The translations under genes were made by a program, and so were the position numbers. From an uncultured delta proteobacterium (GTDB taxonomy: Bacteria; Desulfobacterota; Zymogenia; Zymogenales; Zymogenaceae): 64,000 nucleotides of DNA. The stretch spans positions 672,001 through 736,000 of the forward strand of contig CAVTLK010000005.1 of assembly GCA_963735595.1 (NCBI GenBank), in the 5' to 3' direction. The notes under the pieces were generated by a model that saw only the letters and a program-made list of their open reading frames with translations, was not told the origin of the DNA and ran no database searches. Shown here one piece after another: positions 38,703 to 63,644 of the stretch; the stretch's first letter is position 1; every line of letters starts with the position of its first letter.

Positions 38703-38933
38703 ATGTATAAAGGGGACACCTTTTTTGCGGAGCGTAATTTCGCGGTGGATTACGAGCGGGCGCTGATGGATATGCCCGACATGGAGCTCTGGATATGGCT
38801 GATGCACCGGCGGGGATACTCCCAGGGGTACATCGGCGACAGCATCGGCGTTACCCAGTCGGACGTGGCCTATCGAATCGACCGGATACAGGACTATATA
38901 AAGCGACGGGTGAATGAAGAAGAAATGCACTGA
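38703..38933 (+). CDS. Small sigma70-region-4-like HTH protein leading the terminase operon
   Basis: GYSQGYIGDSIGVTQSDVAYRI HTH pattern; RBS GGAGGT; paralog of 56812-57066. Confidence 0.7.
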   Translation: MYKGDTFFAERNFAVDYERALMDMPDMELWIWLMHRRGYSQGYIGDSIGVTQSDVAYRIDRIQDYIKRRVNEEEMH

Positions 38934-39172
38934 AGAGGGGACCGGGGCCGCCCCGCCCGACGGCGGCGTCTCCCGCCGGTGACGGGGATGCCGCCGGCGC
39001 GGGGGGCGCTGACGCGGTCTTTCGGGACATCGTCAAAAAGGCCGGGGAGGGAAACATCAAGTACCAGGAGCTTTATCTCAAGTATATCGACCTCATTTCG
39101 GAAAGAAGGGACAACAAAGACGAAGTGGTTTACAAGGCGACCTTTATCGATGACGAAGATCAAGAGGCTTAA
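38914..39172 (+). CDS. Putative terminase small subunit-like protein (apparent frameshift; absent from the ORF track)
   Basis: The ATG at 38914 overlaps the HTH gene end. After a frame change it reads DAVFRDIVKKAGEGNIKYQELYLKYIDLISERRDNKDEVVYKATFIDDEDQEA*, overlapping the TerL start. Confidence 0.45.
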
Positions 39173-40373
39173 GCTGTACCGCCCCCACGCGGGCCAGAAG
39201 GCCCTGCACGAATCGGACGCCCGTTTCAGGGTGGCCGCGTGCGGCAGGAGGTGGGGAAAGACGCTGGCCGCCACGGCGGAGATGATCAGGCACGCCTGGG
39301 AAAGGCCGGGCTCTCTCTCGTTTTGGGTGGCGCCGGTGCTGCGCCAGAGCGCGATCGCCTTTGACCTGGTGAGGCGGGGGATGCCGCGGGGGACGGTGGC
39401 CGATATCCACAAGACCGACCGGAGGGTCGGCCTCGTCAACGGCTCGGTGCTCGAGTTCAGGAGCGCCGAGATCCCGGAAAACCTGCGGGGGTTCGGCATC
39501 GACTTCCTGGTGGTGGACGAGGCGGCCTTTCTCTCGAAGGACCTCTGGGAGGAGGTCCTGAGGCCGGCGCTTTCGGACCGGCAGGGCAAGGCGCTCTTTG
39601 TGGGCACGCCCAAGGGGAAGAACTGGTTTTTCCGCCTCTTTTCCCGTGGGATGGACAGCGAGCAGGCGGGCTGGCAGTCCTTCACCTTTCCCACCGAAAA
39701 TAACCCGTACATACGCCCGGAAGAGATCGAAGACGCGCGGCGGACCCTGCCCGAGGCGGTCTTCGCCCAGGAGTACCTGGCCCGCTTTGTCGACGACGGG
39801 GCGGGCGTCTTCTCGGGGGTCAACGACATCATCACGGGGAAACTGGCCGACCCGCTGCCCGGCGGACGGTATACGGCTGGACTGGATATCGGCAGGCACC
39901 GGGACTACACGGTGCTGACGATTGTCGACGGCAGGGGGTCGGTCGTCTACTTTGACCGCTTTTCCGGGACGACCTGGACGGCGATGAAACGGCGGGTGGC
40001 CTCGGCAATCAGGCGGTACAACCGGGCCGTCGCCTGGGTCGATTCCACCGGCGTGGGCGATCCGATCCTCGAAGACCTGATACGAATGGGCGCGGCCTGC
40101 CGGGGTTTCCGATTCACCAACGAATCAAAGTCGGCGCTCATCGAAAACCTTGTCCTCCTGATCGACGAGCGGAAGATCGGTATCCCCCCGATACAGGAGC
40201 TTATCGATGAGCTGGTGATGTTCGAGCTGAAAAACCTCCCGGGAGGCGGCGTCTCATACGGGGCGCCGGGGGGCTTCCATGACGACTGTGTCATATCGCT
40301 GGCCCTCGCCGCGTGGGGGATCAGGGGGATCAGGGTGAGCCAGTCGGACTTTGGACAAACGCTTGGTTTTTGA
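39150..40373 (+). CDS. Phage terminase large subunit (Terminase_6-type)
   Basis: Q motif PHAGQ, Walker A ACGRRWGKT, Walker B LVVDEA, coupling motif GTP, and nuclease acidic residues GLDIG, VDSTGVG and HDDCV. Confidence 0.93.
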   Translation: MTKIKRLKLYRPHAGQKALHESDARFRVAACGRRWGKTLAATAEMIRHAWERPGSLSFWVAPVLRQSAIAFDLVRRGMPRGTVADIHKTDRRVGLVNGSVLEFRSAEIPENLRGFGIDFLVVDEAAFLSKDLWEEVLRPALSDRQGKALFVGTPKGKNWFFRLFSRGMDSEQAGWQSFTFPTENNPYIRPEEIEDARRTLPEAVFAQEYLARFVDDGAGVFSGVNDIITGKLADPLPGGRYTAGLDIGRHRDYTVLTIVDGRGSVVYFDRFSGTTWTAMKRRVASAIRRYNRAVAWVDSTGVGDPILEDLIRMGAACRGFRFTNESKSALIENLVLLIDERKIGIPPIQELIDELVMFELKNLPGGGVSYGAPGGFHDDCVISLALAAWGIRGIRVSQSDFGQTLGF

Positions 40374-40387
40374 TGAAAGGAGCCGGT

Positions 40388-40588
40388 ATGGATGCCGAAG
40401 TGCGGTTTACGGACGGAGAGACGCGGTCCTTCTTAAACGTGAGGTCAATAGACGTTCGCGACGGTGCGGTCATTGTCCGGCGGTGGGTCAGGGTCGTCGC
40501 GATACTGCCGATGGATACGATCCGCTGGGCGACGCTCGTCAGGCGCCGGAAGGTCTCACAGGACGACTTTGGGAAGGCCGCCCTGTAG
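40388..40588 (+). CDS. Small hypothetical protein between TerL and portal
   Basis: RBS AAGGAG; 66 codons; beta-rich. Confidence 0.6.
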   Translation: MDAEVRFTDGETRSFLNVRSIDVRDGAVIVRRWVRVVAILPMDTIRWATLVRRRKVSQDDFGKAAL

Positions 40589-40649
40589 GGGTTCGGGCCT
40601 TCCCGCGGTTGCGGCCGGTTTACCGGCACGGCCCGCGAAAGGGAATCAT

Positions 40650-41897
40650 ATGAACAAAAACGACATGAAGCTCTTTCTTAACTATTACGACGGCTGCCGG
40701 GAGGCGATCTTCAAAGATTTCACGGTCCGCCGGGTCGCCGAAGGTCTGCCGAAAGAGCAGCGGATATCAATCAGGGACTTCTATTTTCAAAACGACATCC
40801 GGGTCATCCAGGACACGAGGGCGAACTTTATGCCGCCGACCTTCGACGTTGTCGTGACCAGGAGGGGCGAGACCGCGCCCCACGACGGGCTGACCGGCGA
40901 GGTAACGGCGTGGCTGAAGTCCCGCAACTTCGGCGGCGGCCGCACCTTCTGGGAGGCGCTGCCCGGCTACTACCTGACACAGGAGAACTACGGCACGCTC
41001 TTTTTGAAGCTCTTCGTCAGGGGCGGGGAGGTCTGTGTGCAGAAGATGTATTCCCAGGATGTGGAAGTAATCACGGACGAGAAGAACTACCTCGAAGTCA
41101 AGAAATACGTCTTCGGGTGGGAAGAGGCGGCGACGCTGGAGGGGGGAGGCGTGAGGATGTCGGTCATGCGGGAAGAGATCGACGCGGAGGGCTTCTCCTT
41201 TTATATCGACGGAAGGCTCGTAAAGAGAGAGGCGCACGCCTTCGGCTTTATCCCGGTCGTCAAGGTCCTCCGGGAGGAATCGGAGGGGAGCCCCTACGGC
41301 CGATCGGGAATCCAGGACCTGGTCGAGGGGCAGCTGGCCGTGAACATGGCGCTGACCAAGCGGGCCTGGGCTACGAAGTATAACAGCTTTCGGGTATGGG
41401 CGCCCAAGGAATCGGGCCACGTGGCGCCGGGCACGACCATCACGGTATCGCCTGGGGCGCTTTCGCCGATCCCCCTGGAGGCGGTGGGGGGCGACGTTGA
41501 CCTCTCGGCGGTGGAGCGCGAGCTCGAGGACGCGCTGGACCATCTCTACCGGATGGGATGCGTACCCCGAAAGCTCAGGGAGGAGATCGCCTCGTCGGCC
41601 ACGTCGGCAAAGGCGCTCAACACGCTGCTCGAGGGCCTCAAGCGGTACACCGAAAAAAAGCTGGTCTATCTGCGGAAAGGATTCGAAGAGCTGATAGAGA
41701 AGTCCCTTGCGGTCAGGTTCGGCACCGGCATCTTCGTGGCGACGGTATCGTTTCCGTCTCTCTCCGGCGAGGACCCCCAGCACGTGATGGCGCGGGCGCA
41801 GTTCCTGGCCGACCGGGGGTTTATGACCGAGGCGCTCAAGGAGCTCGGCTATGACGAACAGATGGTGGAGAAGATGAAGGGGAGCCAAGGCCCCTGA
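40650..41897 (+). CDS. Phage portal protein (SPP1 gp6-like)
   Basis: Position after TerL; motif FGFIPVV........PYGRSGIQDLVEGQLAVN and SAKAL...L..L.. Confidence 0.75.
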   Translation: MNKNDMKLFLNYYDGCREAIFKDFTVRRVAEGLPKEQRISIRDFYFQNDIRVIQDTRANFMPPTFDVVVTRRGETAPHDGLTGEVTAWLKSRNFGGGRTFWEALPGYYLTQENYGTLFLKLFVRGGEVCVQKMYSQDVEVITDEKNYLEVKKYVFGWEEAATLEGGGVRMSVMREEIDAEGFSFYIDGRLVKREAHAFGFIPVVKVLREESEGSPYGRSGIQDLVEGQLAVNMALTKRAWATKYNSFRVWAPKESGHVAPGTTITVSPGALSPIPLEAVGGDVDLSAVERELEDALDHLYRMGCVPRKLREEIASSATSAKALNTLLEGLKRYTEKKLVYLRKGFEELIEKSLAVRFGTGIFVATVSFPSLSGEDPQHVMARAQFLADRGFMTEALKELGYDEQMVEKMKGSQGP

Positions 41898-41956
41898 TCC
41901 AAAGGCTGGAATTGCGGCCGGCAGTCAGCGGCCGGGCCGCGGGCGGTCCGGCGAAG

Positions 41957-42001
41957 CGACGGGGCCGCCGTCCCATAGGGGGCGGCGGCCCCGTCGTATT
42001 T
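41957..42001 (+). terminator. Strong GC hairpin closing the terminase-portal operon
   Basis: CGACGGGGCCGCCGTCCC-loop-GGGCGGCGGCCCCGTCG followed by TATTT. Confidence 0.6.
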
Positions 42002-42118
42002 AAAACGCGGTACGTGCGATTATGGCACCCTGCTGCGGCCTCTCCAATCGCTTCTGAAATTCCGTTGACATATCGCCTGTTTCTGATATTCTTAATAACA
42101 ATAACTATCGGTGATCCG

Positions 42119-42901
42119 ATGATCATTTACTGCCCGGCATGCGGCTTCAGGGGTAGGGTCCCGGAAGGCAAAGACGGACGGGATAAGAAGCGCGTCATCT
42201 GTCCGTCGTGCGGCCACCGGTTTTCCGTCGGTCTGGTTGTTGTGCCATCCGGCGATCAGCCGACCGCCGGTGGGGCCTATACCGCACCGCCATACCGGGA
42301 CGGAAAGAAAAAAAAGCGGCGCCTGTTTCTCTGGGGCTGTCTTATTGCCGCTGCCGCCCTGGCGATCGGGATCGGGATCTTTTTCCTCATCAATGGAATC
42401 TCCCGGCAGGTCCAGGAAAGCAAGGAATCCGATATCCTGAAGAAACTCGGTGAAAAATACCCGGAGTATCTCCTGCTCAATTCCATCGCAATCGATCCCG
42501 GTTCCATGACCGAGCTCCAGATCACCTCGTACCAGGGGGGCCTTGTCGGTAAGGGATGCGTGGGGATGGGTACCGTCGTGAATATCGAAAAGACGATGGG
42601 GTCGACCGTGCTCGATTTCTTCGGCCTGACCGCGCCGGGAACGATCATCACCCTTACCTTCAAGGGGTATGACATCGAGCTGTTGCTGGATGAATCGTAT
42701 TCAGATGAGTTCCTTACCTATGGTGTCGGGGACACGGTCCTTTTCGCGGGAATCATAAAGAAGGCGGTGATCGACAGGCGGACGCGCGTCGCCCTTGTCG
42801 ATGTGATCATTGAGGGGCACCGAAAAGGAGAGCCCGGCTCGCGCCCCCCGGAAATCAAGAAGAGTCTTACCAAACGCCTTATTGAACTTTTGCTGCAGTA
42901 G
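42119..42901 (+). CDS. Zinc-ribbon (MJ0042-like) single-pass membrane protein
   Basis: CPAC...CPSC, a TM helix, and a soluble C-domain. Confidence 0.7.
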   Translation: MIIYCPACGFRGRVPEGKDGRDKKRVICPSCGHRFSVGLVVVPSGDQPTAGGAYTAPPYRDGKKKKRRLFLWGCLIAAAALAIGIGIFFLINGISRQVQESKESDILKKLGEKYPEYLLLNSIAIDPGSMTELQITSYQGGLVGKGCVGMGTVVNIEKTMGSTVLDFFGLTAPGTIITLTFKGYDIELLLDESYSDEFLTYGVGDTVLFAGIIKKAVIDRRTRVALVDVIIEGHRKGEPGSRPPEIKKSLTKRLIELLLQ

Positions 42902-42935
42902 CGGCCGGTTTGCTTCGCACGTATGCGGGGAGGTT

Positions 42936-44310: not shown

Positions 44311-47300
44311 TCAGGTTTTAACCGCACATCTCAGCTTAAGAAGGATTACCGCATCACCGATAAGCGTCTCTACGACTTCAATACTCTTCTTGAGATTGAC
44401 TTCATTCTGATGTTGTATAGACAGTTCACTGATCAGGTATTCCTTCGGCTGGCTGGGTCTTTTCATTTCTCGCTCGAGAGTCCTAATCCTTTTTGAGACG
44501 GCTTCCATGTATCTATGCTTCTTGGACCGGAAATCCCTGATGTTTGGAGATATCTCGATGTTCGATGCGGAGAGGGCCAGCCGCACCTTCTTTTTTTCTT
44601 CCCTGTTACTCCGTATCAACATTCGAGACGAAAAGCGGTCAAGAAACGGCACGTTGGATTCTTCCAGGAGCGATCGCAGCTTATTGAGGTTGGTATCCAT
44701 GGTCCCGGCCCTGATGATGTCTTTATCAACCCACCCTCTGCCGTCCGACTTCATGCGTGCGGCAAGGTAGATAAGACGGGCAACCGCCGACTCGGACCTT
44801 GCCAGCCGTTTGAGCACGTGTTCCCTTGGGTATTCATCCCACCTGAGGGTAATGAGGAAGGCATCCTTCTGAACATCAATGGAAAGGGAGAAGGGATAGA
44901 TATAGTTCGGGTCCAGCGGCGCCAGGAATATCTCGGAGCTTCCGTCATCCTCGATGTCGTCGTCGAGTTGTGAAAGACTCTCGGTAATATCAAGGAGATT
45001 CTTTGACGTGATACCGCCGATGCTGACGGCAATACCGGTTATACTACCCGAAAGATCGGGCACCGGGTACGCGGTAATCCTGCGGTTCTTGCCAAAACAG
45101 GATATGGAATCGTTCTTCTCGATCCGGCCGGCAGAGAGAGAAGAACGGCGGGACACCCCTCGCACGGAGTGTCCTTTTGGCACAACATCTCATGGCAGAG
45201 GCGGCCCACCATCTCTTCGATCGGAAGGCCCGTTAACTGGGACATGGCGCTATTGGCCCACGTTATCTTCAGGGATAGATCGGCAAAGAAGACCATATCG
45301 GACAGGCTATTCAAAACGGCCTCCTGGCTTCCCGCCACGAGCCTGAGCCGGTCTTCCATCTTTTTACGGTCGGTTACGTCCCTTCCAATCCCCCGAACCT
45401 CGACGATCTTTTCTTCCTCCCATTTCAGTTCGTCATTGAATTCGATCGTTCGGACTTGCCCGTCTTTTCTGACAATGTCAAGCTCATAACCGTGAAGCCG
45501 GGTTCCGGTACGCTGGAGGCGGAAGAGCTCCTGCGCATATTTCTTTGAGGAGGGGCCGTAGAACTCGTAGAAGTTCCTCCCGATTACTTCGTCCGGCTCG
45601 TATCCCAACTGCCGTACCGCGTTGTTCACGAACTTGAGATTTCCCTTGAAGTCGGCCACATAGATCATGTCGTTTGTGCTGTCTACCAATTCACGATATT
45701 TCTGTTCGGATTCGGTGAGGGCGGCTTTCGCCTCTCTGCGGGCGACGGCCGTTCCGATTATTGAGGAGACGGTCTGGAGCAGGAGGATATCCTGCTCGTC
45801 CCAGACGCGCTCTATCTCGTAGTCGTCAAAACCGATGAAACCCCAGAATGTATCGGCAACGAAGATCGGGATCATTATGCTGGATAATGAACCGATGATT
45901 GTAAGGATCTCGCGGTCAATTGGGGGGTAATCTTTTGTCGGCCCTCCGAACCAATGACCGTTACTCAACGCGTCGAACATCTCTGGGGAGCGGTATTTGT
46001 ATGCCACCTTGTCCGGTATCGGGAAGTCAAGCGGCGGCCTATTGCGGTCGTTCATCGCCTCAGCAATAGTCAGCATGCTGATGCCTTCGACGGGGTCCAT
46101 TATGTTCTTGCAGATGAAGACGCCGCCGACTCCCAGTTTCTCAAGGAGATGGCGGACTATGTTTTGCATCGTCAGTTCGAGGTCGGCCAAAGGGACAAGC
46201 TCACGAGAACAGAAGGCCACGGCCTGCTCGTAACGAAGTCGTCTTTTTATTTCCTCTTCCGCGTCAACTTTCTCGGTTATATCGGAGACGAAACTCAAAA
46301 TCGAGGGTTGCCCCTCCCACATAATCGGGATCCCGTTGACCTCGATACAGCGTAGATTTCCCCTGGCATCGCGCATGCGATACCGGTAGAATGGCAGAGC
46401 TTGTTCTCCGGAGCTCAACCTTCCGAGTTCGTCATGCAGTTTTTCCCGGTCGCTTCTGAGAACCAGGTCAGAGAGATGCCTTCCAAGCAGTGCGCTCGGT
46501 GGAACCCCGAAAAGAGTCATGACACGGTTGTTGGCAAATTCGACGATTCCGTTTCGCGTTATGACGATGATTTCGTTGGCATTCTCGACGACCAGCCGGT
46601 ACTTCTCCTCCGATTCCCTCAGGGCGTCCTCGATTCGCTTCCGTTCGGTGATATCGGTGGCGATGTTGAGGGCGGCCGGCTTTCCTTGCCATAGGATAGG
46701 CACGATGCTGTTTTCAGTCCATATAATGTTACCATCCTTAGTGACAAGACGCATGACTAGCGGCGGGGGTGTTTTTTCCCCTTGCTTGAGCCTTTGCCTG
46801 TGCTCGACCAGCAGGTGACGGTCGTCCGGGTGAACGAGGTCGATTGTCGGTGTCCCCAACAGCTCGTCTTCACTGTAGGAGGATACGGCCAGAGCCTTCG
46901 TGTTAACAAGCCGTAAGGTGCCGTCAACAGATACCGTGATTATCTCGTTGGCGTTTTCAACAACAAGGCGGTACTTCTCCTCGGATTCTTTCAGGGCATC
47001 TTCGATCAACTTCCGTTCCGAAATATCGGTGGCAATTACAAGTGCGGCGCGTTTCCCCTGCCAGATGAAGGGCACTACGCTGTTTTCCATCCAGACTATC
47101 GTGCCGCCCTTGGTGAGCATACGCGCGGTGAAGAACTGGGGCTCCGGATCGCCCTTATCACGTTTACTTCTATGGTCAAGGACGAGTTTGCGGTCATCGG
47201 GGTGAAAAAACTCGATGATCGGGGTGGACGCCAGCTCTGCTTCCGAATAGCCGAATAATTCGGAGGTCTTCTTATTATAGAGCGCTAAATACCCATCCAC

Positions 47301-48581
47301 AGCGAGGATGATTACCTCAGCGGCGTTTTCCACGACGAGGCGGTATTTCTCTTCCGATTCCCACAGGGCGTTCTCGGCTTTTATCCGTTCTGTAATGTCG
47401 GTAATAGTACCGGTCAGACCGGTCAACTCGCCATTAAAATACTGCCGACGGCTGAATGTCCGAACGTGGACGATTCCCCCGTTTTTCCTGATTGCCCTGA
47501 ACTCGAGGGGCTCCTTTTGGCCGTTTATGGTTCTCGCGTAGCTTTCCTTGAAGATCTGAAGGTCGTCCGGGAATATGAAATCGGTAATGGCTCGGCCGAT
47601 AATTTCCTGCACCGGGTACCCGGTAATCTGTTCAATCGACGGGCTAACGTATGTTACGCGGCCCTCCAGGTCGGTGCTGCAGATGACATCATTAAGGTTT
47701 TCCACAAGCGATCGATATTTTTCCTCCGACTCCCTGAGCGCGGTCTCCACCCGTTTCCTGTCCGTCACGTCACGTGCTATCCCGTAAATCTCTACAATTC
47801 GGTTTCCTTTCCAAGTCAAGCGCTCCTTAGCTTCGATCGATTTGATCTGGCCGTATTTATCATAGATGTCATATTCGATAAGCCCTACGTCTATTCCTTT
47901 CACCTGCTTCTTGAAGGTTTCGATAGCGACGGCATACGACTCCGGTACGACGACATCCCTGAATCCCTTACCGAGAAGCTCGCCGGCGGAATAGCCATAT
48001 TCTCGCTCAATTGTCTGGTTAATGAATTTGAAGTTGCCATCGCTGTCCGTGACGTAGATAAGGTCACCGGTATGCTCTACCATGTCCCGGTATCTCTCTT
48101 CGGATTGCCTCAGCTTGAGTTCAATCTCCGCTCTTTCCGTGATGTCGCTGATGAGAAAAAGCGTAGAGGGCGTCCCCTCCCACGTGAATGGAACACCGGT
48201 GCCCTCCATCCATTTGACGCGGCCTTCTTTGTCTATTATGCGGAAATCTATCGGCGGCGACGTGGCTTTTCTGAGAAGGGTATTTTGATAGTGGCGGGTT
48301 CCAGTCTCCCGATCTTCGGGATGAATGAGCTCGATGAATGGACGCGATGTCAGTTCTTCCCGGGTATATCCGGTATACTCGGAAATCTTCGGGTTCGCAT
48401 ATAGTATGACGTTATCCCGGGCAATGACAATTCCCTGGCCGGCGTTTTCGACGACAAGGCGATAATCGCCTTCGGTGTTTTTCGGCCTCGCGTGAGGCGC
48501 GGCATTTTCAGAGGTATTTACATCACCTCCGACCGGCGTCCTTGATGGGAACTTGCTACTATCGGTGTCTTGTCGGGACAT
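44311..48581 (-). CDS. Large multi-sensor protein (6 PAS, GAF, 2 PAS, non-kinase C-terminal domain), frameshifted near 45142
   Basis: Repeated ESEEKYRLVVENA...DITERK PAS/PAC units and a GAF (WGFIGFDD..ERVW). The last PAS continues in the 44311-45183 frame. Confidence 0.8.
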
Positions 48582-55512: not shown

Positions 55513-56739
55513 CTACCGCACGTTCTTGTCGGCGTAAAGGCGCTCCTCACAGTGTTTGATCATATCGCCGACCTGAAGCTGGAAGTCCTTATTGATCAGG
55601 TCCAACGAGCGCTCATCCATAAAACCCTGTGCAACTGAACGGGCCTTGTCGTATTCCCCCAGGTTAAAATAGGCCTGGTAGAGAAGCTCCATGAACTGGA
55701 AGTGAAGTTTCTCCGCAAGCCTTTTATCCTTTACCTGGTACCAGAGTTTTTGTTCGTAGTGCATTGAGGTCCGACTAATGACTTTGCGGTCCTCTTTCCC
55801 GAGAAATCGCTTATTGTAGGTAATGATCCCCGAAAGGTATTGGGACATCGGTGCCTCTTCCTCTTGATTCTCCTTCATCTCCTCCATGTCTTTTTGGGCT
55901 TCCTCATTCTTTTCCATGTTCCTTTTCTGTTCGTTGAGGACGGTATCGATCGTCTCGGGAGTGAGCTTGATATCCTTGAGGCTTGACATGTAGTCATTTG
56001 GTTGCATAAGGAGGGTGATATCGTTCAGACCGTTGGCAAGGTAAAGGTCAGACACCTGAACCATTACCTCGAAGGGCATATTGGTCTCGACTATTTCGTG
56101 GGAAACGAATAGGAGCGCCCGGCCCAATGTGGGGTATTCCTTGAAAAGAGGGTAGTTGCGCATAATCTCGGAGGCAATGAAAAAGGCCTGGTTGTGCGAT
56201 CGCTGGGGGTCACCCATCCCATATGCCTTGCGGGAGCGGAGAACCTGCAGAGTTTTTTCTCCATTATAGCCGAGCTTCTCGAAGAGCGCCTCCGCCTCGG
56301 AAAAACCGACGATAATGTAATAATCGACGTGAACCTCGAGGTAATCCTGGACGGCCTTAATGGTTCCCTCACGACCCTCAAGCGAGTATGTGTTGGCGAT
56401 GATCTCTTTACCATCCATTATTTTTTCGCTCATGGTCCCCCGGGGAATCGAGGTGATTCTAATTTTTCCCTGATAGGGGAGGAGCGTCATGAGATGAATG
56501 GCATCGGCCCTTCGATCGTGTTGGCCTCGACGGCCGTCGAGGCCGAGAATGAGGACGTTAATCCGTTTTGGGGACGCCGGGAGATCCGGGAGAAACACAA
56601 GCTTCTCGAGGAGCTCATGATAGTAAACGATCTTGCCTTTCCAATCGGTAAACCAGTTGCCGGCCAGCGCCGATCCGGGAACGACGGACAGAATAAGGAG
56701 GACAGCAACAAAGATGGATGTTTTCTTAATTGAGTTCAT
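55513..56739 (-). CDS. LCP (LytR-CpsA-Psr) family protein
   Basis: NVLILGLDGR, RADAI, SIPR and R.R...GD..R..NQ. Confidence 0.8.
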   Translation of the reverse strand: MNSIKKTSIFVAVLLILSVVPGSALAGNWFTDWKGKIVYYHELLEKLVFLPDLPASPKRINVLILGLDGRRGQHDRRADAIHLMTLLPYQGKIRITSIPRGTMSEKIMDGKEIIANTYSLEGREGTIKAVQDYLEVHVDYYIIVGFSEAEALFEKLGYNGEKTLQVLRSRKAYGMGDPQRSHNQAFFIASEIMRNYPLFKEYPTLGRALLFVSHEIVETNMPFEVMVQVSDLYLANGLNDITLLMQPNDYMSSLKDIKLTPETIDTVLNEQKRNMEKNEEAQKDMEEMKENQEEEAPMSQYLSGIITYNKRFLGKEDRKVISRTSMHYEQKLWYQVKDKRLAEKLHFQFMELLYQAYFNLGEYDKARSVAQGFMDERSLDLINKDFQLQVGDMIKHCEERLYADKNVR

Positions 56740-56811
56740 TTCCTTCCGCAACTTTCCGAGTATAGACCTTTAATTATATAATCACTTTCCGGTAAAAGTC
56801 AAGCAGATCAA

Positions 56812-57066
56812 TTAATTTTTCCTAATACGGGGATCACCCGTCTCCAACCGGCCGGTCACTCGTCGCCTAAAATGACGCTCTATCTTCTTAATCCGATGAC
56901 TGACCGCTGATTGGCTAAGGTTGAGCTTTCGGGCGATCCATTCCTGACTCTTACCGGCCCGGTGCATCAGCCAAACGAACAGATCATCGTCGGGGAGTTC
57001 CATAAGGGCCTTTTCGTATCGAGAGAAGAAGGTTTCCGATGGGAGGTAGCAATCGGGATTAAACAT
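56812..57066 (-). CDS. Small sigma70-region-4-like HTH protein (Cro position of the switch)
   Basis: GKSQEWIARKLNLSQSAVSHRIKKI; RBS AGGAG; paralog of 38703-38933. Confidence 0.75.
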   Translation of the reverse strand: MFNPDCYLPSETFFSRYEKALMELPDDDLFVWLMHRAGKSQEWIARKLNLSQSAVSHRIKKIERHFRRRVTGRLETGDPRIRKN

Positions 57067-57098
57067 ATACTGACTCCTTTTGTGTATGACCGGACGAT

Positions 57099-57266
57099 AC
57101 AATATGAAATAGTTCCCAATATGTCAACACGAGTCTTAGTCGATATCCCACTTATGGCAACTATTTGCTCTGGAATATTCCCAATACGTCAACTAATCCC
57201 CGATTATCTCGACTTATTTAGGTGTGTACGAATATAGTTGACATAACAGAAACTTACTACTACTAT
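57099..57266. promoter_or_regulatory. Divergent promoters with repeated 17-bp operators
   Basis: Leftward TTGACA(57127-57122)-17-TATTGT; rightward TTGACA(57238-57243)-17-TACTAT(57261). Operator-like 17-mers at 57112-57128, 57145-57161, 57177-57193 and, inverted, 57237-57253. Confidence 0.75.
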
Positions 57267-57272
57267 GGTACT

Positions 57273-57821
57273 ATGAGCGACGGAGAAAATATTAAGAATA
57301 TACGAAGAAAGAAGGGATTAACCCAGGAAGAGCTCGGGGGGTTGTTAGGCGTCGGGAAATCGGCCGTCAGCCGGTGGGAATCGGGCGAGCGAGAGGTGAC
57401 GCTGGGTACGATGCGAGGCATCGCCACCGCCCTCGGCGTCCCCCTCGAATGGCTGGTGGAAGGGCTCGACTCTTCGGATGACCCTCCTATAGACGAGCAA
57501 AACCGCGGCATTCGTAAGAAAGATGGTACTATCTATGATTCAGGGCAGCTCAACGTCAGATCGAACGTGGACGAAGCATCGCACCGGATACCCGACGCGG
57601 CGGACCCCGATCATATTGGAGCCGTCTCGGAAAGGCAGGAGAATTTCAACGATCGGTCCCAAATATACCTCACCATACCCCGGATTGATGATCCCGAACT
57701 GATATCGGCTTTCGAGGGTTTCAAGGAATTGGATAAACTGACTCCGTCTGATATCGACGACATCAAGGCGATTCTAAAGATCGCCCAGCGGATTATCGAG
57801 AAACGGAGAAAGCTGGAGTAG
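57273..57821 (+). CDS. XRE/cI-like helix-turn-helix repressor (probably leaderless)
   Basis: IKNIRRKKGLTQEELG.LLGVGKSAVSRWESGER. The ATG lies 7 nt after the -10 box and there is no RBS. Confidence 0.88.
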   Translation: MSDGENIKNIRRKKGLTQEELGGLLGVGKSAVSRWESGEREVTLGTMRGIATALGVPLEWLVEGLDSSDDPPIDEQNRGIRKKDGTIYDSGQLNVRSNVDEASHRIPDAADPDHIGAVSERQENFNDRSQIYLTIPRIDDPELISAFEGFKELDKLTPSDIDDIKAILKIAQRIIEKRRKLE

Positions 57822-57977: not shown

Positions 57978-59660
57978 ATGAAGTTCCTTGATGCACACGA
58001 GATTACGATGCAGAACCTTCTCCTGGATAAAAACCGGGCATATAAGGTTCCGATCTATCAACGGCCTTACGTCTGGAACGAAGAACAATGGCAGGAGCTT
58101 TACGACGACCTGCTGGGGTTGGCCGATTCAGATGTCCATTTCCTGGGTTCCGTGGTCGTTGTAAGCGATCAGAAGACAAGTGCCGCCGTGGAATATTACC
58201 AGGTCGTAGATGGGCAACAACGCCTGGCCACGATCCTGATATGGTTGGCGGCCCTGCGGGACTCCCTCAGGCAACGCGGCGAAACGGAGCTGGCCGACTA
58301 CCTGACCGGTTTCCTCTTTATCACCCAATACAGCGACGGGCAGTTCATCAGGATTCCGAAACTCACTCTCGGCGAATTCGACAACCCGCTCTTTCAGGAA
58401 ATCCTCGAGGGGACCCCCCTCCGAGCGAACGAGAGCCTCCTGAATAAATGCTATGCCTATTACCGTGATAAGAACGAGGAAGATATTCTATCCGGCCTCC
58501 TCAATAAGATTTCCATCGTACATATCAATGTATTTTCACATCTCAACGCCTTCCGGCTTTTCGATACCCTCAACGATCGAGGGTTGGAGCTTTCCTCCGT
58601 TGATCTGGTCAAGAACTTCCTGCTCATGAAGGTATCCGGTATACGCGAGATATTCGACGAAACTATCTTCTTGTGGAACGAGATGTTCACAAGGGTCAGG
58701 GATAAGGACCCGGTTAAGTTCCTCAGACGCTACGTGCTGTCCCGGTTTAAGGGAAAGGTCCCCGAGGCCCGCCTCTATGAGAAGATTATAGTTGCCCTCG
58801 CTCATGCCGAACCGGCCGACATTAAGGCCTTTACCGCCGATATGGCCGAAAAGGCGGCAATCTACGATAAGATCGTTCGGGCCGGGTTTTCGTCGGAGGC
58901 CGTAAACCGACGCCTTAAGAATCTCCACCTTGTTGAGGTAACGCCTTCTTATTCCCTTCTCCTTCCGGTTTTTTCGGCTTTTGAGGCCGGGACTCGAAAT
59001 ATATCCGAGCAAGACGTTTGCGATATCCTTCGCGCCATCGAGGCGTTCCACATTCGCTGGGGGATCTCCGGCCGCTTTACCGGAAACCTTGATCAAATAT
59101 ACAACACGATCTGTCTCGAGCTTGCGGGCCACGACCCATCCCAATATCGCGAGTTCATTACAAATACGCTCGCAGAGGAATTGCTGGAAAACGGCATTGA
59201 TGACAGAACGTTTGCCCGCAGCTTCATCACCCGACCCTTCAAAGGTAACGAGTCTCGGACTAAATATATACTCTTGACGCTTTCGCAGCTCATGAAACCG
59301 GACGAACAGCCGGTGGATGTCGGCCTTGTTACCACCGAACACATCATGCCGGTGGTGCTTGGAACGCGGTGGCGGGAAGAACTTATCAATGAAGTGAGAT
59401 CAAAAGATGAGATTCTCAAGCTTCATCGGGAAAACATGGGTCGTATCGGGAACTTAACCCTCGTCACCGGAGACTGGAATTTGGGGCACTCCAACCGTGC
59501 ATTCTCCGAGAAAAAGGAGAAGAAATACTACTGGGACACGGAGCTTGCTATTACTAATACCTTGTTGAGTTACGACCGATGGGGATTCGAACAGATCGAT
59601 CGACGGAGCCGTGAGCTCTTTGATCTTGTAAAAAAGAGCCGGCTTTGGAAAATCGCGTAA
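57978..59660 (+). CDS. DUF262 + DUF1524 (HNH) protein, GmrSD/SspE-like defence nuclease
   Basis: VPIYQRPYVW, DGQQR, FDTLNDRG, EHIMP and IGNL.L...N...SN..F..KK. Confidence 0.85.
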   Translation: MKFLDAHEITMQNLLLDKNRAYKVPIYQRPYVWNEEQWQELYDDLLGLADSDVHFLGSVVVVSDQKTSAAVEYYQVVDGQQRLATILIWLAALRDSLRQRGETELADYLTGFLFITQYSDGQFIRIPKLTLGEFDNPLFQEILEGTPLRANESLLNKCYAYYRDKNEEDILSGLLNKISIVHINVFSHLNAFRLFDTLNDRGLELSSVDLVKNFLLMKVSGIREIFDETIFLWNEMFTRVRDKDPVKFLRRYVLSRFKGKVPEARLYEKIIVALAHAEPADIKAFTADMAEKAAIYDKIVRAGFSSEAVNRRLKNLHLVEVTPSYSLLLPVFSAFEAGTRNISEQDVCDILRAIEAFHIRWGISGRFTGNLDQIYNTICLELAGHDPSQYREFITNTLAEELLENGIDDRTFARSFITRPFKGNESRTKYILLTLSQLMKPDEQPVDVGLVTTEHIMPVVLGTRWREELINEVRSKDEILKLHRENMGRIGNLTLVTGDWNLGHSNRAFSEKKEKKYYWDTELAITNTLLSYDRWGFEQIDRRSRELFDLVKKSRLWKIA

Positions 59661-59762
59661 GACGAGTCCCCACCTTCTCACGTTAGAAACGGAGAAAACC
59701 GGCCGGTCGAGTGGCCACGGAGATATTCGTGGAATGTTGTGAATCGAAATGGAGATAATCAG

Positions 59763-59969
59763 ATGGTACTATTTCTGCTGCTTATTATCGTCGCTGCGGT
59801 AGTTCTCTATATCTTGTATACCCAGGGGAAGCTCGGCACCGGGGACAAAGACCCTCTCAATGTCTTCAAGAAGAAGGAAACGCCGCGGGAAGTCCTGGAC
59901 AGGAGATTTGCCGCCGGCGAGATTGGAGAAGAAGAATACCGACGGATGAAGAAAACACTCGAAGAGTAG
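59763..59969 (+). CDS. SHOCT-domain small membrane protein
   Basis: TM helix followed by PREVLDRRFAAGEIGEEEY. Confidence 0.75.
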   Translation: MVLFLLLIIVAAVVLYILYTQGKLGTGDKDPLNVFKKKETPREVLDRRFAAGEIGEEEYRRMKKTLEE

Positions 59970-60137
59970 TAAAGCTTCGCTATAGCACGACCGACCCTCC
60001 GGTGCCCTCAAAGCGAACGGCGGCCCCGGCCCGTTATGCTCGGACGGGCCGGGCAATACTCGACTATTGCAAACGCCGTTTGTCGCCCCGAGTTCCCTCG
60101 CCTTCAGTTATCAATACCGGCTTGCCCGGACCTTTAT

Positions 60138-60725
60138 CTACCCGCGCCCAAATCGGTTGAGATGGAGGATCCGTTCCATCGTCCGCTTCGGTACCCGGTG
60201 GGAACCCGCCTCATCCTGATAATACCGAACGTCGCTTCCTTGGGTATCCTCGGCCGCCGGCTTCTGAGCCGGATATCCCACCGCGATCATCGCGTCAATC
60301 TCGTATCCGGCGGGGATCGCCAGTAGACTGCGAATTTGATCACGATCGATATTGCGGATGAAGCACGCGCCAAGACCGTGCGCAACGGCAGCCAACAGCG
60401 CGTTTTGAACGGCGCATCCAACATCGTATTCATACCCGGATTTCATGATCGTCGTATTGACGAGCACCGCGATATAGGCGGCCGGGCGTACCTCGGCCAC
60501 CGGCCGCTCCTTCTGCGGTAACAGCGCGCCCATCCGGGTATATGGAAAGAGCCCGGAGACCGTGATTTCATCATCGACGACGATATATTCGAGGGGCTGA
60601 AGGTTAACCGCCGATGGGGCAAGCCGGGCGGCGTTCACCATCTCCAGGAGTAAGGCCCGATCCACCAGCCTTTGATCATACCTGCGAATGCTCCGTCTGG
60701 TACGGATCGCAGAGATTACGTCCAT
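60138..60725 (-). CDS. Nitroreductase family protein
   Basis: RRSIRRY, APSAVNLQP, GLGAC and AVGYP. Confidence 0.9.
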   Translation of the reverse strand: MDVISAIRTRRSIRRYDQRLVDRALLLEMVNAARLAPSAVNLQPLEYIVVDDEITVSGLFPYTRMGALLPQKERPVAEVRPAAYIAVLVNTTIMKSGYEYDVGCAVQNALLAAVAHGLGACFIRNIDRDQIRSLLAIPAGYEIDAMIAVGYPAQKPAAEDTQGSDVRYYQDEAGSHRVPKRTMERILHLNRFGRG

Positions 60726-60811
60726 AATTTCTCCACTTCATATGTCGTTAAACTTCTTACGTATTCTGCTTCGTAAGCCTAATGTATCGGTTATAAAATG
60801 TCCATCGAAAT

Positions 60812-60826
60812 TCATATTCTCAATAG
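60812..60826 (+). promoter_or_regulatory. Leader motif shared with the terminase operon (TCATATTCTCAATAG)
   Basis: 13/15 identical to 38637-38651. Confidence 0.5.
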
Positions 60827-60881
60827 TCCGACCGCCCCAGCCGTACAATGATCATCAAGAATATCTTGGAGAGGAGTACGT

Positions 60882-61592
60882 ATGGTTGATGCTAACAGGT
60901 TTAGTATTTCAAGGCCGTCGGCGATTGCTGCCGATCCCGCACTAATCCGTTCGGGTATCGAGCCGGCGGCATCTGGCGGTGGCGCGCCGTCCGGTGGTGA
61001 TGCGGTAGAAACGGGTGATGGTTTTGATACTGCGCCGCTGGAGCGGCTGGTCCAGCTACTGGAGGCCCTTGCGGAACGGATTGAGACCCTCACTGAATTG
61101 ATGGCGCCGCTTGGCGAGAAACCGTGTGCGGACGGGGATAGCTCTTCGAGGGAGGTGATAGCCCGGGAAATTGAAGCGGCCGCCGACGCGCTGATCTACA
61201 CGGATTTTTTCCAGAAGGCCGTTGAACTCGGAATGAGCCCTAACATGGTTGCCGACGCCTATAAACTTGCCGACCTGACGGGCATAACGGCTAATCTGGA
61301 GACCAAGGAGGTAATTGGTACGAATGCGGCGGTCAATACCCTTCTTGAGAAGAGGCCGTATCTTTTCATCGTCCATCAGGTCGACATCGGAACGGAGACC
61401 AATCCAGTTAAAGGGCCGTCTTCTCATCCTGACGAGGTTGAGGGCCTGGCGCGGACGCTCGGAGTAAGCCCTGAGTTCGCCGCCGCGCTTGTCAGGAAAA
61501 GGTCGGACAAAGTGCGCGGCGATGTGGCGCTCTCCGACATATGGAGGATCCCGCGCGCCAACAGGCTTTCGTTTCTCGAAAACAAAGAATAG
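60882..61592 (+). CDS. Phage capsid scaffolding-like protein
   Basis: Coiled-coil, then A..LG.....DAYKLADL..I......V.G..AAV..LLEKRPYLF scaffold-type motif; located upstream of the capsid genes. Confidence 0.65.
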   Translation: MVDANRFSISRPSAIAADPALIRSGIEPAASGGGAPSGGDAVETGDGFDTAPLERLVQLLEALAERIETLTELMAPLGEKPCADGDSSSREVIAREIEAAADALIYTDFFQKAVELGMSPNMVADAYKLADLTGITANLETKEVIGTNAAVNTLLEKRPYLFIVHQVDIGTETNPVKGPSSHPDEVEGLARTLGVSPEFAAALVRKRSDKVRGDVALSDIWRIPRANRLSFLENKE

Positions 61593-61610
61593 TCCTAAAG
61601 AGGAGTACAC

Positions 61611-62087
61611 ATGGCAACTTACATGAAATATGGTTACAGCTACGGTCCCCGGGTCGTTGTCACGGCCAGAGTGGCGGATACCGGCACGATTGATGACGGC
61701 GATATCGTCGTCTTGGACGCGGTGGGTGGGGCCGCCGGAGCTGGATACATCAAGAAGTGGAGCGCCGCGTCCGATCCCATCGTGGGTGTCGCTCTTGAAA
61801 AGGTCGAGCAGAAGCCCGATGCAGACGGCGATGAATCCATACAAATCGTGCTGGCGATACCGGGTAGCGTCTTCGTTTATCCCGCCCAGGGCGTCGGGCG
61901 GGGCCATTGCTTCCAGACCTGCGATATCAACGGGCCCCAGTCGGTGAACATTGCGGCCGATACCTACAAGAACGCCTGGATCATCGAGGTTGACGAGGAA
62001 ATGGGTTTGGCCTATGCGATGCTGAAGGGGCCGTTTTCGGAAAACGATACCGGATCGGACATCGACTACGGCACGGCAGGTGCCTAA
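61611..62087 (+). CDS. Putative capsid decoration/cement protein
   Basis: I..GDIVVL....GYI.......IVGVA pattern, immediately upstream of the MCP. Confidence 0.55.
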   Translation: MATYMKYGYSYGPRVVVTARVADTGTIDDGDIVVLDAVGGAAGAGYIKKWSAASDPIVGVALEKVEQKPDADGDESIQIVLAIPGSVFVYPAQGVGRGHCFQTCDINGPQSVNIAADTYKNAWIIEVDEEMGLAYAMLKGPFSENDTGSDIDYGTAGA

Positions 62088-62108
62088 TAACACAATAGGA
62101 GAACGTGT

Positions 62109-63092
62109 ATGGGAATTATGGTATCAGGCAATTTTCCCGAGCTTCTTACCCAGGATCTCTACGAATGGTATTTCGAATCATACGACGCCGAAGGAACGGT
62201 CTATGACAAGATCGTCGAGGTCGTGCCGGTATCGACGGGAGACGGGATAAAGGGTACCGAGGTTATCGGGGTTTCCCGGCTCAAGGAAGTCCCGGATGGG
62301 CAGGAGATACCGCTCACCGAACCCTCCGAGGGATGGACCTGGTATATCAAGTTCAAGACGTACAAGGACCAAATCGCGCTTACCGACGATATGCTGAGTG
62401 ACCTCAATGCGGGGAAACTTAACGCCGATCTCATGGAATTTGCCAGGGGCTGGGGCGAAGGAGTCAGGATTACCGAAGAGGAGGCGGTTGCCCGAGTCTT
62501 CAATAAGGGTGCGATGGGGGCCGGCGACCGTATCGCGTTTAACGGCTCGTTCACCAACAACGACGATCCGTATCCGAAGTTCATTTACGACGGAAAGGGA
62601 TTCTTTGGGGCCGGGGCGGACGGCCACCCCTTTAAGCTCAAAGGCTCAGTCAGACTGAATAACCTCACTACGAGCCTGGATATGAGCTACGATACTATCC
62701 AGACCGTCTATTCGGCGATGGCCGTTACCAATGCGGTAAACGAGCGGGGAGAGCGGGTCAAGATCGAGCCCAATGTTATCGTTACCAATCCCAAGAACCG
62801 ATTTGTCCTTGATCAGATTCTACAGTCCGTCTACGAGATAGACGCCTACGGGAACAAGAATGTCCTGGAAGGGATGTTTACACCGGTTTACTGGCGGTAT
62901 ATCGAAGACGATAACGCCTGGTACATGGGCGTGGCTCGTCGGGGTGTTCGTTTCTATGACCGCCAGCCGGCCAAGATCACTGTCTACCGTGACGAGGCCA
63001 CCGATACCTGGTTTGCCAAGATAAAACGACGTTTCGGTGTTGGCGTGGTCCAGTGGCGCTATTGGTACGCGTGTAACGTGGCCACAAGTTGA
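62109..63092 (+). CDS. Major capsid protein (HK97 fold, Mu gpT-like family)
   Basis: L.EVPDG.EIP, TY...I.LT..M..D, YDGK.FF...HP, ERGE...I.P..IV, AWY and RFG.G...WR..Y; 327 aa. Confidence 0.85.
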   Translation: MGIMVSGNFPELLTQDLYEWYFESYDAEGTVYDKIVEVVPVSTGDGIKGTEVIGVSRLKEVPDGQEIPLTEPSEGWTWYIKFKTYKDQIALTDDMLSDLNAGKLNADLMEFARGWGEGVRITEEEAVARVFNKGAMGAGDRIAFNGSFTNNDDPYPKFIYDGKGFFGAGADGHPFKLKGSVRLNNLTTSLDMSYDTIQTVYSAMAVTNAVNERGERVKIEPNVIVTNPKNRFVLDQILQSVYEIDAYGNKNVLEGMFTPVYWRYIEDDNAWYMGVARRGVRFYDRQPAKITVYRDEATDTWFAKIKRRFGVGVVQWRYWYACNVATS

Positions 63093-63110
63093 TTGGGTAC
63101 TATTTTTGGT

Positions 63111-63128
63111 GGGGAGGGAAACCTCCCC
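63111..63128 (+). other. GNRA-tetraloop hairpin after the major capsid gene
   Basis: GGGGAGG-GAAA-CCTCCCC. Confidence 0.7.
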
Positions 63129-63150
63129 CGTTGCTATTAAGGAGACGGGC

Positions 63151-63438
63151 ATGGCGATTATCAGCGATATTCAGGTTTCGAAACACGGTTGGTTTTCCAA
63201 CGATGTTATTAAGGCACTCACCGATTCGTTCGTGGAGTTTGAATTCGGGTTCGCCTCTTTTTCCATCACGGTTTTCAATGACGCCGAGAGCGGTTGGATC
63301 GAATACTCGTTTGACGGACCTAACGCTAATGGAAGGGTAATGCCGGGGGAAACGCGGAAGATGGACTTCTGCCGTCACGGGGCGATATGGCTGCGGGGGG
63401 AGAGCGGGGCCGAACCCTATCGCTTGGAGGTCTACTGA
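63151..63438 (+). CDS. Small beta-rich hypothetical protein in the capsid operon
   Basis: RBS AAGGAG; 95 aa; its TGA overlaps the next ATG. Confidence 0.65.
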   Translation: MAIISDIQVSKHGWFSNDVIKALTDSFVEFEFGFASFSITVFNDAESGWIEYSFDGPNANGRVMPGETRKMDFCRHGAIWLRGESGAEPYRLEVY

Positions 63439-63644
63439 TGGGATTCACGAAAGAACAGCTGGGTGCCGTGGAGGCCGAGATCGCTTCCCTTAAGGCCGGC
63501 ACCTTTTCAATAGGCCAGCTGAGCGTTGACCAGGAAAAGACTCTGGCCGCGCTCATCCGTCTGCGGGAGGTCATGATGGCCGATCTGGCCGGCAGCGAAG
63601 GGATAAGGTTTGGCAGGGCCATGATCGACGGAATGGACAGGTAG
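63438..63644 (+). CDS. Putative head-completion protein (lambda gpW-like)
   Basis: 68 aa with a helix / beta-hairpin / helix pattern: FTKEQL.AVEAEIASL..TFSIG..SV....LAAL..LR..M.A.L. Confidence 0.55.
   Translation: MGFTKEQLGAVEAEIASLKAGTFSIGQLSVDQEKTLAALIRLREVMMADLAGSEGIRFGRAMIDGMDR

What the first reader, a model, noticed from the sequence alone, without database searches (positions are those of the whole stretch)
38703..63644. Split, apparently domesticated phage-head gene set: candidate new gene transfer agent or tail-less capsid system
Seen: a DNA-packaging operon (HTH, TerS-like, TerL, small ORF, portal; 38703-41897) divergent from gltX and closed by a hairpin. About 19 kb away is a capsid operon (scaffold, decoration, Mu-gpT-like MCP, small ORF, gpW-like; 60882-63644), also closed by a terminator. 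Ordinary host genes lie between them (purF, purB, LCP, PAS sensor). The two modules are complementary with no redundancy, and TerL, portal and MCP are intact. No integrase, att-like repeat, replication, tail or lysis gene is visible next to either. Known: in temperate phages these genes are normally contiguous, while characterised GTAs (RcGTA, BaGTA, VSH-1) are host-fixed, lack autonomous replication and can be spread over several loci. Capsid-forming PICIs are head-only but contiguous and carry an integrase. Inference: a host-maintained GTA-like particle system, possibly undescribed in this lineage.
Basis: partly seen in the sequence, partly recalled or inferred. Interest (0 to 1): 0.92.

Follow-up and report, generated by a model that had tools for sequence, protein, structure and literature searches.

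The report
Tamed phage particle kit, split up
An uncultured family of anaerobic bacteria keeps an old phage's head, tail, DNA-packing, lysis and switch genes intact, scattered among its own genes and under shared control, which suggests a previously undescribed virus-like particle that carries the host's own DNA between cells, although no particle has been seen.

Summary
The two modules are real, but the system is not tail-less: neck, non-contractile tail and lysis genes start 2 kb past the window end. The host is a Ca. Zymogenaceae (Desulfobacterota). TerL and capsid orthologs are single-copy in 8 of 9 relatives; the ninth assembly also lacks the surrounding host genes. They sit at fixed sites, show dN/dS of 0.03-0.36 and largely follow the rpoB tree. 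The three operons share a promoter motif (the three best sites in 3.6 Mb). Overlooked in the window is a divergent repressor / sigma4-type HTH pair with three palindromic operators, kept in 9 of 9 carriers. Free phages with the same head (45-62% identical) show what was lost: the HTH-bearing TerS, minor head, tail-completion, chaperone and replication genes. Tape-measure-like genes are dispersed in some genera and not found in this one. Best reading: a domesticated phage that makes gene-transfer-agent-like particles (about 0.6; domestication itself about 0.93). Random packaging and transfer are untested. The scan reached a similar reading before on another genome (e1-1458517).

The parts
38636..38674 (+). 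Shared promoter motif 1: TTCATA-n3-TT(C/A)ATA repeat, 18 nt spacer, TANAAT
   Evidence: (28.4 bits, best site in the genome, matrix trained on 12 sites from other genomes)
38703..38933 (+). Sigma70-region-4-like HTH (76 aa); candidate late activator
   Evidence: dN/dS 0.10-0.26; homologue upstream of terS in free phage L156 (E 1.3e-8)
38914..39172 (+). TerS-position protein: disordered, length-variable N-part plus a conserved core of about 55 aa, no HTH; one frameshift in this assembly, open in relatives
   Evidence: called TerS from position only
39150..40373 (+). Large terminase (407 aa), Terminase_6 type
40388..40588 (+). Conserved 66-aa ORF of unknown role
   Evidence: weak homologue before the portal in phage L157 (E 0.011)
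40650..41897 (+). Portal (415 aa, SPP1 gp6-like)
41955..41998 (+). Terminator-like hairpin
55513..56751 (-). LCP-domain protein directly behind HTH2 in 9 of 9 carriers; link to the particle unknown
56812..57066 (-). HTH2: second sigma4-like HTH (84 aa, 41% identical to the packaging-operon HTH); candidate master activator
   Evidence: (2 copies in each of 9 carriers)
57112..57253 (.). Three 17-bp operator-like palindromes (GTTGAC-n5-GTCAAC type) overlapping the -35 boxes of the divergent promoters; the only such cluster in the genome
57273..57821 (+). XRE/cI-like repressor (182 aa), divergent from HTH2
   Evidence: (9 of 9 carriers)
60811..60849 (+). Shared promoter motif 2, divergent from the nitroreductase gene
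   Evidence: (26.5 bits)
60882..61592 (+). Scaffold (236 aa)
   Evidence: weak; phage homologue hits phrog_206
61611..62087 (+). Decoration-position protein (158 aa)
   Evidence: (dN/dS 0.05-0.07); role from position
62109..63092 (+). Major capsid protein (327 aa, HK97 fold)
   Evidence: (dN/dS 0.03-0.07)
63151..63438 (+). Conserved 95-aa ORF; nearest clusters are unnamed viral proteins
   Evidence: lead only
63438..63644 (+). gpW-like adaptor candidate (68 aa)
   Evidence: homologue before the head-closure gene in phage L157; the gpW label is recalled
63741..63780 (+). Intrinsic terminator-like hairpin with U-tract
64000..64000 (+). Marker only: the third operon lies BEYOND the window end, at G000:C5:737788-747585 (locus L019, about 3790-13586): promoter motif 3, head closure, tail terminator, tail tube (255 aa), Dit-position 130 aa, 489-aa tail protein, hub of about 1090 aa (in pieces here), two small tip genes, holin-like ORFs, M15 endolysin, two spanin-like ORFs
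   Evidence: phrog_807 3e-17, phrog_177, phrog_894 2.9e-10; NF052337 above its cut-off; holin, spanin and Dit labels are from position and hydrophobicity

Best explanation
An ancestor of Ca. Zymogenaceae domesticated a temperate siphophage and keeps it as a gene-transfer-agent-like particle system. SHOWN: packaging, capsid, neck/tail/lysis and regulator modules are single-copy, chromosomal, ameliorated, under purifying selection, mostly inherited with the host, and the three structural operons share one promoter motif. INFERRED, in order: (1) the XRE repressor binds its three palindromes and keeps HTH2 off in most cells; (2) when repression lifts in a few cells, HTH2 and the operon's own HTH bind the TTCATA repeat at the -35 position and switch on all operons, with positive feedback; (3) scaffolded HK97-type heads with a portal are filled by TerL in headful mode, and because the TerS-position protein has no HTH, packaging starts at many chromosomal sites; (4) a short non-contractile tail and tip are added, and holin, M15 endolysin and spanin-like proteins lyse the producer; (5) particles inject host DNA into kin, where ComEC-type import and recombination use it for gene exchange or repair.
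For: Orthologs in 8 of 9 relatives for TerL and MCP, one locus each. The ninth (G005) also lacks close orthologs of gltX, purB, the acyl-CoA ligase and the nitroreductase, so the region is unassembled there. Next to gltX in 8 of 9 carriers and to the nitroreductase in 7 of 9. dN/dS: MCP 0.03-0.07 against rpoB 0.03-0.05; TerL 0.15-0.22; portal 0.10-0.16. Trees against rpoB: packaging 6 of 6 splits, tail 4 of 4. Chromosomal MCPs and portals are separated from free-phage homologues with support 100 and 99. GC3 follows neighbouring host genes. Promoter matrix: 4 sites above 20 bits, 3 of them these operons, against 0 and 1 in two shuffles; none above 15 bits in the two phage and two prophage regions scanned. 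Free phages L156 and L157 carry the same head contiguously with HTH-type TerS, a MuF-like minor head gene and replication-region genes, and L157 also a tail-completion gene; none was found in G000. The 12 of 14 TerS-position homologues that I retrieved all lack an HTH, as putative GTA TerS proteins do (PMC6854486, PMC11841831, passages). No sheath in 5 of 5 genomes; comEC in 5 of 5.
Against: No particle, packaged DNA or transfer was observed, and the one RNA run was uninformative. No tape measure was found in G000-G003, and in G006 only the one of a separate prophage; a tube without a ruler may not build a normal tail. The hub gene is in about 5 pieces in G000 and also broken in G002 and G003, although host genes of these long-contig assemblies are broken too. 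The head tree shares only 3 of 6 splits with rpoB. Tail-tip and lysis genes show raised dS (0.5-1.1 for most, against 0.1-0.35, G000-G003), and one lysis gene of G007 groups with a resident prophage, so these parts recombine. The TerS assignment has no family hit. The packaging operon is not beside gltX in G009. No clear shift to cheaper amino acids against phage homologues. Headful packaging rests on likeness to P74-26, G20c and T4 terminases, whose mode I recall and did not test.
Confidence: 0.6

Rival explanations
1. PBSX-like particle: domesticated and packaging host DNA, but acting as a killing or interference particle against other strains, not as a transducer.
For: Fast-exchanging tail-tip genes, a full lysis cassette and a cI-like switch. 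PBSX packages DNA without injecting it and acts as a tailocin (PMC12946183, passage).
Against: No sheath in 5 of 5 genomes. Head and packaging genes are more constrained than the tail. A tape measure, which a flexible killing tail would be expected to need (recalled), was not found in the own genus.
Confidence: 0.14
2. Protein-delivery particle: the dispersed, membrane-anchored helical paralogues under the same promoter in some genera are ejected cargo or interchangeable rulers, and the DNA mainly drives ejection.
For: Several such paralogues per genome in G004, G007, G008 and G009 and one in G005; 8 distinct genes among the 17 reading frames listed have motif scores of 15-25 bits upstream. 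One hits tape-measure PHROGs at 4e-14.
Against: None found in 5 of 9 carriers, including this genome. No enzymatic or toxic domain seen in the four scanned.
Confidence: 0.1
3. Helper-dependent or defensive element: the host-kept heads and tails work only during infection by related phages, borrowing the missing chaperones and tape measure or poisoning phage assembly.
For: Resident prophages in G006, G007 and G008 share the tail-tip genes (about 29-47% identity to G000 for most) and supply tape measure and chaperones. Chaperone, tail-completion and tape-measure genes were not found in G000.
Against: It has its own repressor and activator switch and its own lysis genes. Searches with the relatives' prophage proteins found no such prophage in G000.
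Confidence: 0.1
4. Decaying prophage remnants, or two unrelated prophages, or a chimeric assembly.
For: Frameshifts in the TerS-position and hub genes of this assembly; a GC step near 42 kb; a 14-bp direct repeat around the packaging module.
Against: The same arrangement lies on one contig in four other assemblies. Short-read contigs from other studies run from MCP through the neck into the tube. dN/dS is far below 1 at dS near or above 1. The promoter is shared. The hub and other genes are intact in G001, G006 and G008.
Confidence: 0.03

Closest known systems
RcGTA / CcGTA (Alphaproteobacteria)
   Same: Host-fixed, multi-locus head-tail-packaging-lysis kit without replication or integrase; short TerS without HTH; co-regulation of scattered loci by dedicated activators, one of which (GafY) contacts RpoD (PMC11150451, abstract and section headings; PMC6854486, passages).
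   Different: No RcGTA-type family hit in Pfam, PHROGs or NCBIfam. The nearest TerL relatives are P74-26/G20c-like, not P22-like as reported for RcGTA (PMC7947584, passages). The head is scaffold-only with a PF25209 MCP; even head and packaging genes are split; the switch is lambda-like; no tape measure in the tail operon.
FpGTA of Faecalibacterium
   Same: Two separated operons (packaging and head; tail and lysis), TerS without DNA-binding domain, near-ubiquitous in its clade (PMC12946183, passages).
   Different: Gram-positive host and podovirus-like, with particles shown. Here a sipho-type tube, three operons plus a regulator locus, and no particles shown. Sequence homology was not tested.
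Dd1 of Desulfovibrio desulfuricans
   Same: The deltaproteobacterial GTA named in the papers I read; predicted TerS without DNA-binding domain (PMC6854486, section 10; PMC11841831, passage).
   Different: Dd1 genes were not compared directly. The MCP profile found only 3 weak, partial hits among 391 genomes of other families of the phylum, so a close relation is unlikely.
PBSX of Bacillus subtilis
   Same: Defective prophage kept by the host, packages host DNA, repressor-controlled (the last point recalled).
   Different: PBSX is contiguous with a contractile tail (recalled). Here the genes are split and no sheath was found.
Uncultured phages L156 and L157; resident prophage G007:C16
   Same: L156/L157: TerL 50% (L156), portal 47-50%, decoration 45-57%, MCP 56-62%. 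G007:C16: tube, tip and lysis genes 31-47% for most.
   Different: They are contiguous, carry replication-region genes, HTH-type TerS and a minor head domain; L157 and G007:C16 also carry tail-completion and chaperone-position genes, G007:C16 a tape measure. They lack the shared promoter motif.

Membership tests
Gene transfer agent (functional class) | Phage-derived head, tail, packaging and lysis genes on the host chromosome | tested here: met
Gene transfer agent (functional class) | Vertical inheritance at conserved loci under purifying selection | tested here: met
   head tree only 3 of 6 splits, lysis and tip genes recombine
Gene transfer agent (functional class) | No integrase, att sites or autonomous replication in the element | tested here: met
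   genome 93% complete; only tyrosine recombinases were searched by family
Gene transfer agent (functional class) | Small terminase without N-terminal DNA-binding domain | tested here: inconclusive
   No HTH in 8 aligned and 12 retrieved homologues, but TerS identity rests on position
Gene transfer agent (functional class) | Headful-type large terminase | tested here: inconclusive
   Nearest named relatives Hardycor1, Tunturi_4, P74-26/P23-45/G20c, T4 gp17; no tree against terminases of known mode
Gene transfer agent (functional class) | Particles package random host fragments too short to encode themselves | not testable with these tools
   needs particle DNA; the genes span about 37 kb with host genes between
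Gene transfer agent (functional class) | DNase-resistant transfer of host markers to recipients | not testable with these tools
   uncultured host; comEC in 5 of 5 genomes is only permissive
RcGTA-like head-tail cluster | Homology to and gene order of RcGTA g1-g15 in one cluster | tested here: not met
   no GTA-type family hits; split operons; no RcGTA capsid among the listed fold matches
Temperate prophage | Contiguous element with integrase, replication module and variable insertion site | tested here: not met
Capsid-forming PICI | Contiguous, integrase-bearing, head-only element | tested here: not met
   has tail and lysis genes, no integrase nearby
R-type tailocin / contractile injection system | Sheath present, head and terminase absent | tested here: not met
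   no PF04984 in 5 of 5 genomes; head and TerL present
Viriform (ICTV category) | Virus-derived element exapted for a host function | tested here: inconclusive
   definition from PMC9953437 (passage); origin and selection shown, host function not

The most novel reading that the evidence does not exclude
An independently evolved GTA of the class Zymogenia whose phage ancestry can be read gene by gene from surviving phage relatives. It keeps a lambda-like repressor/operator switch wired to a pair of sigma4-type activators. Its tape measure has left the tail operon, has become a dispersed, partly multi-copy family in three genera, and is gone in two others, which would then build tubed particles without a ruler.
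Probability: 0.3. Interest if true: 0.88.

Novelty: new variant of a known kind. Interest (0 to 1): 0.74.

Why it matters
Few GTA lineages are known outside Alphaproteobacteria, and reviews name the lack of ways to tell GTAs from prophage remnants as a main block (PMC11841831, part 1; PMC12946183, passages). This case gives a family-wide candidate in an uncultured, rare anaerobic class, with near relatives among free phages. It makes the steps of domestication testable: loss of the TerS DNA-binding domain, splitting where the minor-head gene lay, a new shared promoter, and a retained immunity switch. It also names a concrete candidate inducer (HTH2) and repressor, so particles might be raised without culturing the host. 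The scan's notes list similar split kits in other phyla (unchecked), which would make such systems common.

Tried and rejected
Tail-less capsid system: rejected. Chimeric join at the GC step: rejected by synteny in four other assemblies; contigs laid cover only C5:728001-748000, not the GC step. Secondary loss in G005: rejected as an assembly gap. att site: the 14-bp repeat is not conserved; other repeats look like chance. Expression: RNA run X10 gave 13 short pieces, most running on as unlike sequence, so no verdict; run shares were not used for habitat. Tape measure in G000: six approaches found none (prophage TMP by tblastn; profile of dispersed paralogues; PF10145; G005 protein; promoter rescan; composition ranking, whose top rows I judged by eye to be ordinary host proteins and did not scan). 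The tape measure in G006 belongs to a separate prophage. The fourth promoter site (C5:925143) lies in a low-GC island before a Panacea antitoxin and is not counted as part of the kit. Cheaper amino acids: no clear signal apart from the scaffold. dN/dS of the hub for pairs with G000, G002 or G003 was dropped because alignments ran through frameshifts; pairs with saturated dS were not used. Atlas searches gave leads only. Literature: 'gene transfer agent' + 'Desulfobacterota' gave 3 unrelated listings, 'Zymogenaceae' 0, 'Zymogenus' 2; the class description has no occurrence of phage, viral or gene transfer in its main text (its supplements were not visible). Searches listed no paper on this system. 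Subscription journals are mostly outside the library.
Full report
Setting. The window is G000:C5:672001-736000 of a 3.63-Mb, 5-contig, 93% complete genome. A capsid locus 93% identical to ours lies in a record titled Ca. Zymogenaceae, a family of the fermentative, anaerobic class Zymogenia in Desulfobacterota (10.1101/2021.03.22.436540, passages). Nine other genomes of the family, in five genera counting the own, were available (G001-G009).

Observation. Both modules are present as described. TerL keeps its ATPase and nuclease motifs. The MCP model (pLDDT 71) matches HK97-fold capsids. Two statements fail. First, reading past the window end shows a third operon at C5:738007-747585 with head closure, terminator, a tube above the cut-off of NF052337, tip and hub genes, an M15 endolysin and small membrane proteins. 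A secreted protein with its own consensus sigma70 promoter separates it from the capsid operon. Second, the intervening DNA holds a regulatory locus (below). The assembly has indels in host genes such as gltX, so the breaks in the TerS-position gene and the hub may be errors. The hub, in about five pieces, is more broken than the host genes tested, and this stays open.

Distribution and position. TerL orthologs (58-96%) and MCP orthologs (74-99%) occur at one locus in 8 of 9 relatives. The tube search hit 7 of 9, one of them a prophage gene in G007, whose own hub lies at a contig end. G005, the only genome without the kit, also lacks close orthologs of four flanking host genes, so it is uninformative. 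The packaging operon adjoins gltX in 8 of 9 carriers (not G009); the capsid operon adjoins the nitroreductase in 7 of 9, the other two contigs being too short to tell. The DNA between the modules differs by genus, and in G006 metabolic genes sit inside the neck-tail region while the genes stay intact. Outside the family an MCP profile found 3 weak partial hits in 391 genomes.

Selection and descent. Pairwise NG86 dN/dS was 0.03-0.07 for MCP, like rpoB, 0.05-0.07 for decoration, 0.10-0.22 for portal and TerL, 0.27-0.36 for the scaffold, and 0.04-0.42 for neck, tail and lysis genes where dS was not saturated. Trees of nine carriers shared 6 of 6 splits with rpoB for packaging and 3 of 6 for the head; for seven carriers the tail shared 4 of 4. 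The head conflicts are at short branches, one with support 98. With phage homologues added, chromosomal copies stay on one side of a branch with support 100 (MCP) and 99 (portal). Tip and lysis genes recombine: dS is raised and one G007 lysis gene is 75% identical to a resident prophage's.

Co-regulation. Upstream alignments show TTCATA-n3-TT(C/A)ATA, 18 nt, TANAAT before all three operons. A matrix from 12 sites of other genomes ranks these three sites first in G000; 4 sites exceed 20 bits, against 0 and 1 in two shuffles. A pattern search matched 9 of 10 genomes. At 55513-57821 an XRE repressor and a second sigma4-like HTH are divergent, followed by an LCP-domain gene; this trio is kept in 9 of 9 carriers, and each carrier has exactly two such HTH matches. 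The spacer holds three 17-bp palindromes over the -35 boxes, the only cluster among 32 sites in the genome; part of their conservation could be that of the -35 boxes themselves. dN/dS is 0.03-0.18. That XRE represses HTH2 and that the HTH proteins bind the TTCATA repeat is inference from this layout and from the sigma-contacting activator of CcGTA (PMC11150451, abstract and headings).

Ancestry. Two metagenome contigs, L156 and L157, carry the same head contiguously with NinG or DnaC-like genes, TerS with an HTH, a MuF-like minor head gene between portal and scaffold, and in L157 tail-completion and chaperone-position genes. The domesticated set is split where the minor head gene lay, and none of these extra genes was found in G000. 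Prophages in G006, G007 and G008 share the tip cassette and carry tape-measure-like genes, so the ancestor was probably a mosaic of phage modules still circulating in this lineage. The gene at the TerS position has 14 representatives in 1.84 billion proteins; the 12 retrieved all have a disordered front and one conserved core, with no family hit. This fits the reported lack of a DNA-binding domain in GTA small terminases (PMC6854486, passages and section 10; PMC11841831, passage), but its identity rests on position.

The tape-measure puzzle. No tape measure lies behind the tube in the six carriers read there or in G006. In G004, G005, G007, G008 and G009 a family of helical proteins, many with a hydrophobic N-terminus, lies at scattered loci, often behind the shared motif; one sits directly before the tip genes in G004 and one hits tape-measure PHROGs at 4e-14. 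None was found in G000-G003 or G006. Either these genera build a very short or unruled tube, or their ruler is too divergent to detect, or they borrow one.

Verdict. Domestication and co-regulated maintenance are well supported (about 0.93). Among functions, random packaging with delivery to kin fits best (0.6): the head and motor are the most constrained parts, no pac-recognition domain is seen, there is no sheath and comEC is present. It works like a GTA by anatomy, fails membership of the RcGTA-type cluster, and cannot be filed as a functional GTA without particles. No paper describing the system was listed. PMC7947584, PMC9953437 and PMC12946183 were seen as passages only; PMC11841831 as part 1 of 5 plus passages.

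Noticed in passing
G000:C5:925143-925870 (L073), in a low-GC island that starts with an integrase at tRNA-Arg (C5:908461): The fourth-best virion-promoter motif (24.6 bits) and the best operator-like palindrome outside the switch (C5:925363) both lie upstream of a frameshifted Panacea antitoxin gene. A weaker motif precedes a second Panacea-like gene at C5:523677 (label by eye). Chance, or a mobile toxin-antitoxin locus tied to the same regulators.
   Followed up: partly
G000:C5:737827-738010: A 180-nt leader between the neck promoter and the head-closure gene, conserved in the own genus, folds into two long hairpins (-74 kcal/mol; no shuffle control); possible attenuator.
   Followed up: partly
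window 63967 to G000:C5:737433: A 488-aa secreted repeat protein with a perfect sigma70 promoter sits between the capsid and neck operons in G000-G003 and G006; no clear family hit.
   Followed up: partly
window 36987-38481 and 44311-48581: gltX is split by two frameshifts and the PAS sensor is in pieces (2028 aa in G001), pointing to indel errors in this assembly.
   Followed up: yes
G007:C16 (L064, L065), G006:C18 (L187, L188), G008:C20 (L104, L105): Three prophages share the same tail-tip cassette as the domesticated kit but have other heads; G007:C16 has a tape measure of only 275 aa.
   Followed up: partly
L156:11043-20935 and L157:11386-17064: Both phage relatives carry about 6-10 kb of glycosyltransferase-like and sugar-modifying genes right after the MCP, absent from the domesticated operon; labels from reading the sequences and host hits.
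   Followed up: no
window 890-6635: Three tandem ORFs of 625-631 aa, two with near-identical patterns of overlapping ORFs, suggesting recent duplication.
   Followed up: no
window 17756-19993: Two tandem paralogous 210-216-aa genes with a partial third copy and a 132-aa Cys-rich ORF between them; in G005 a tape-measure-like gene lies next to a homologue of this gene.
   Followed up: partly
window 57978-59660: A GmrSD-type restriction gene lies between the repressor and the nitroreductase in all four genomes of the own genus, with dN/dS 0.04-0.07.
   Followed up: no
G007:C48:64363-64783 (L075): A promoter-motif match lies before a 108-aa membrane protein about 2 kb from the G007 switch; no homologue found in G000.
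   Followed up: partly
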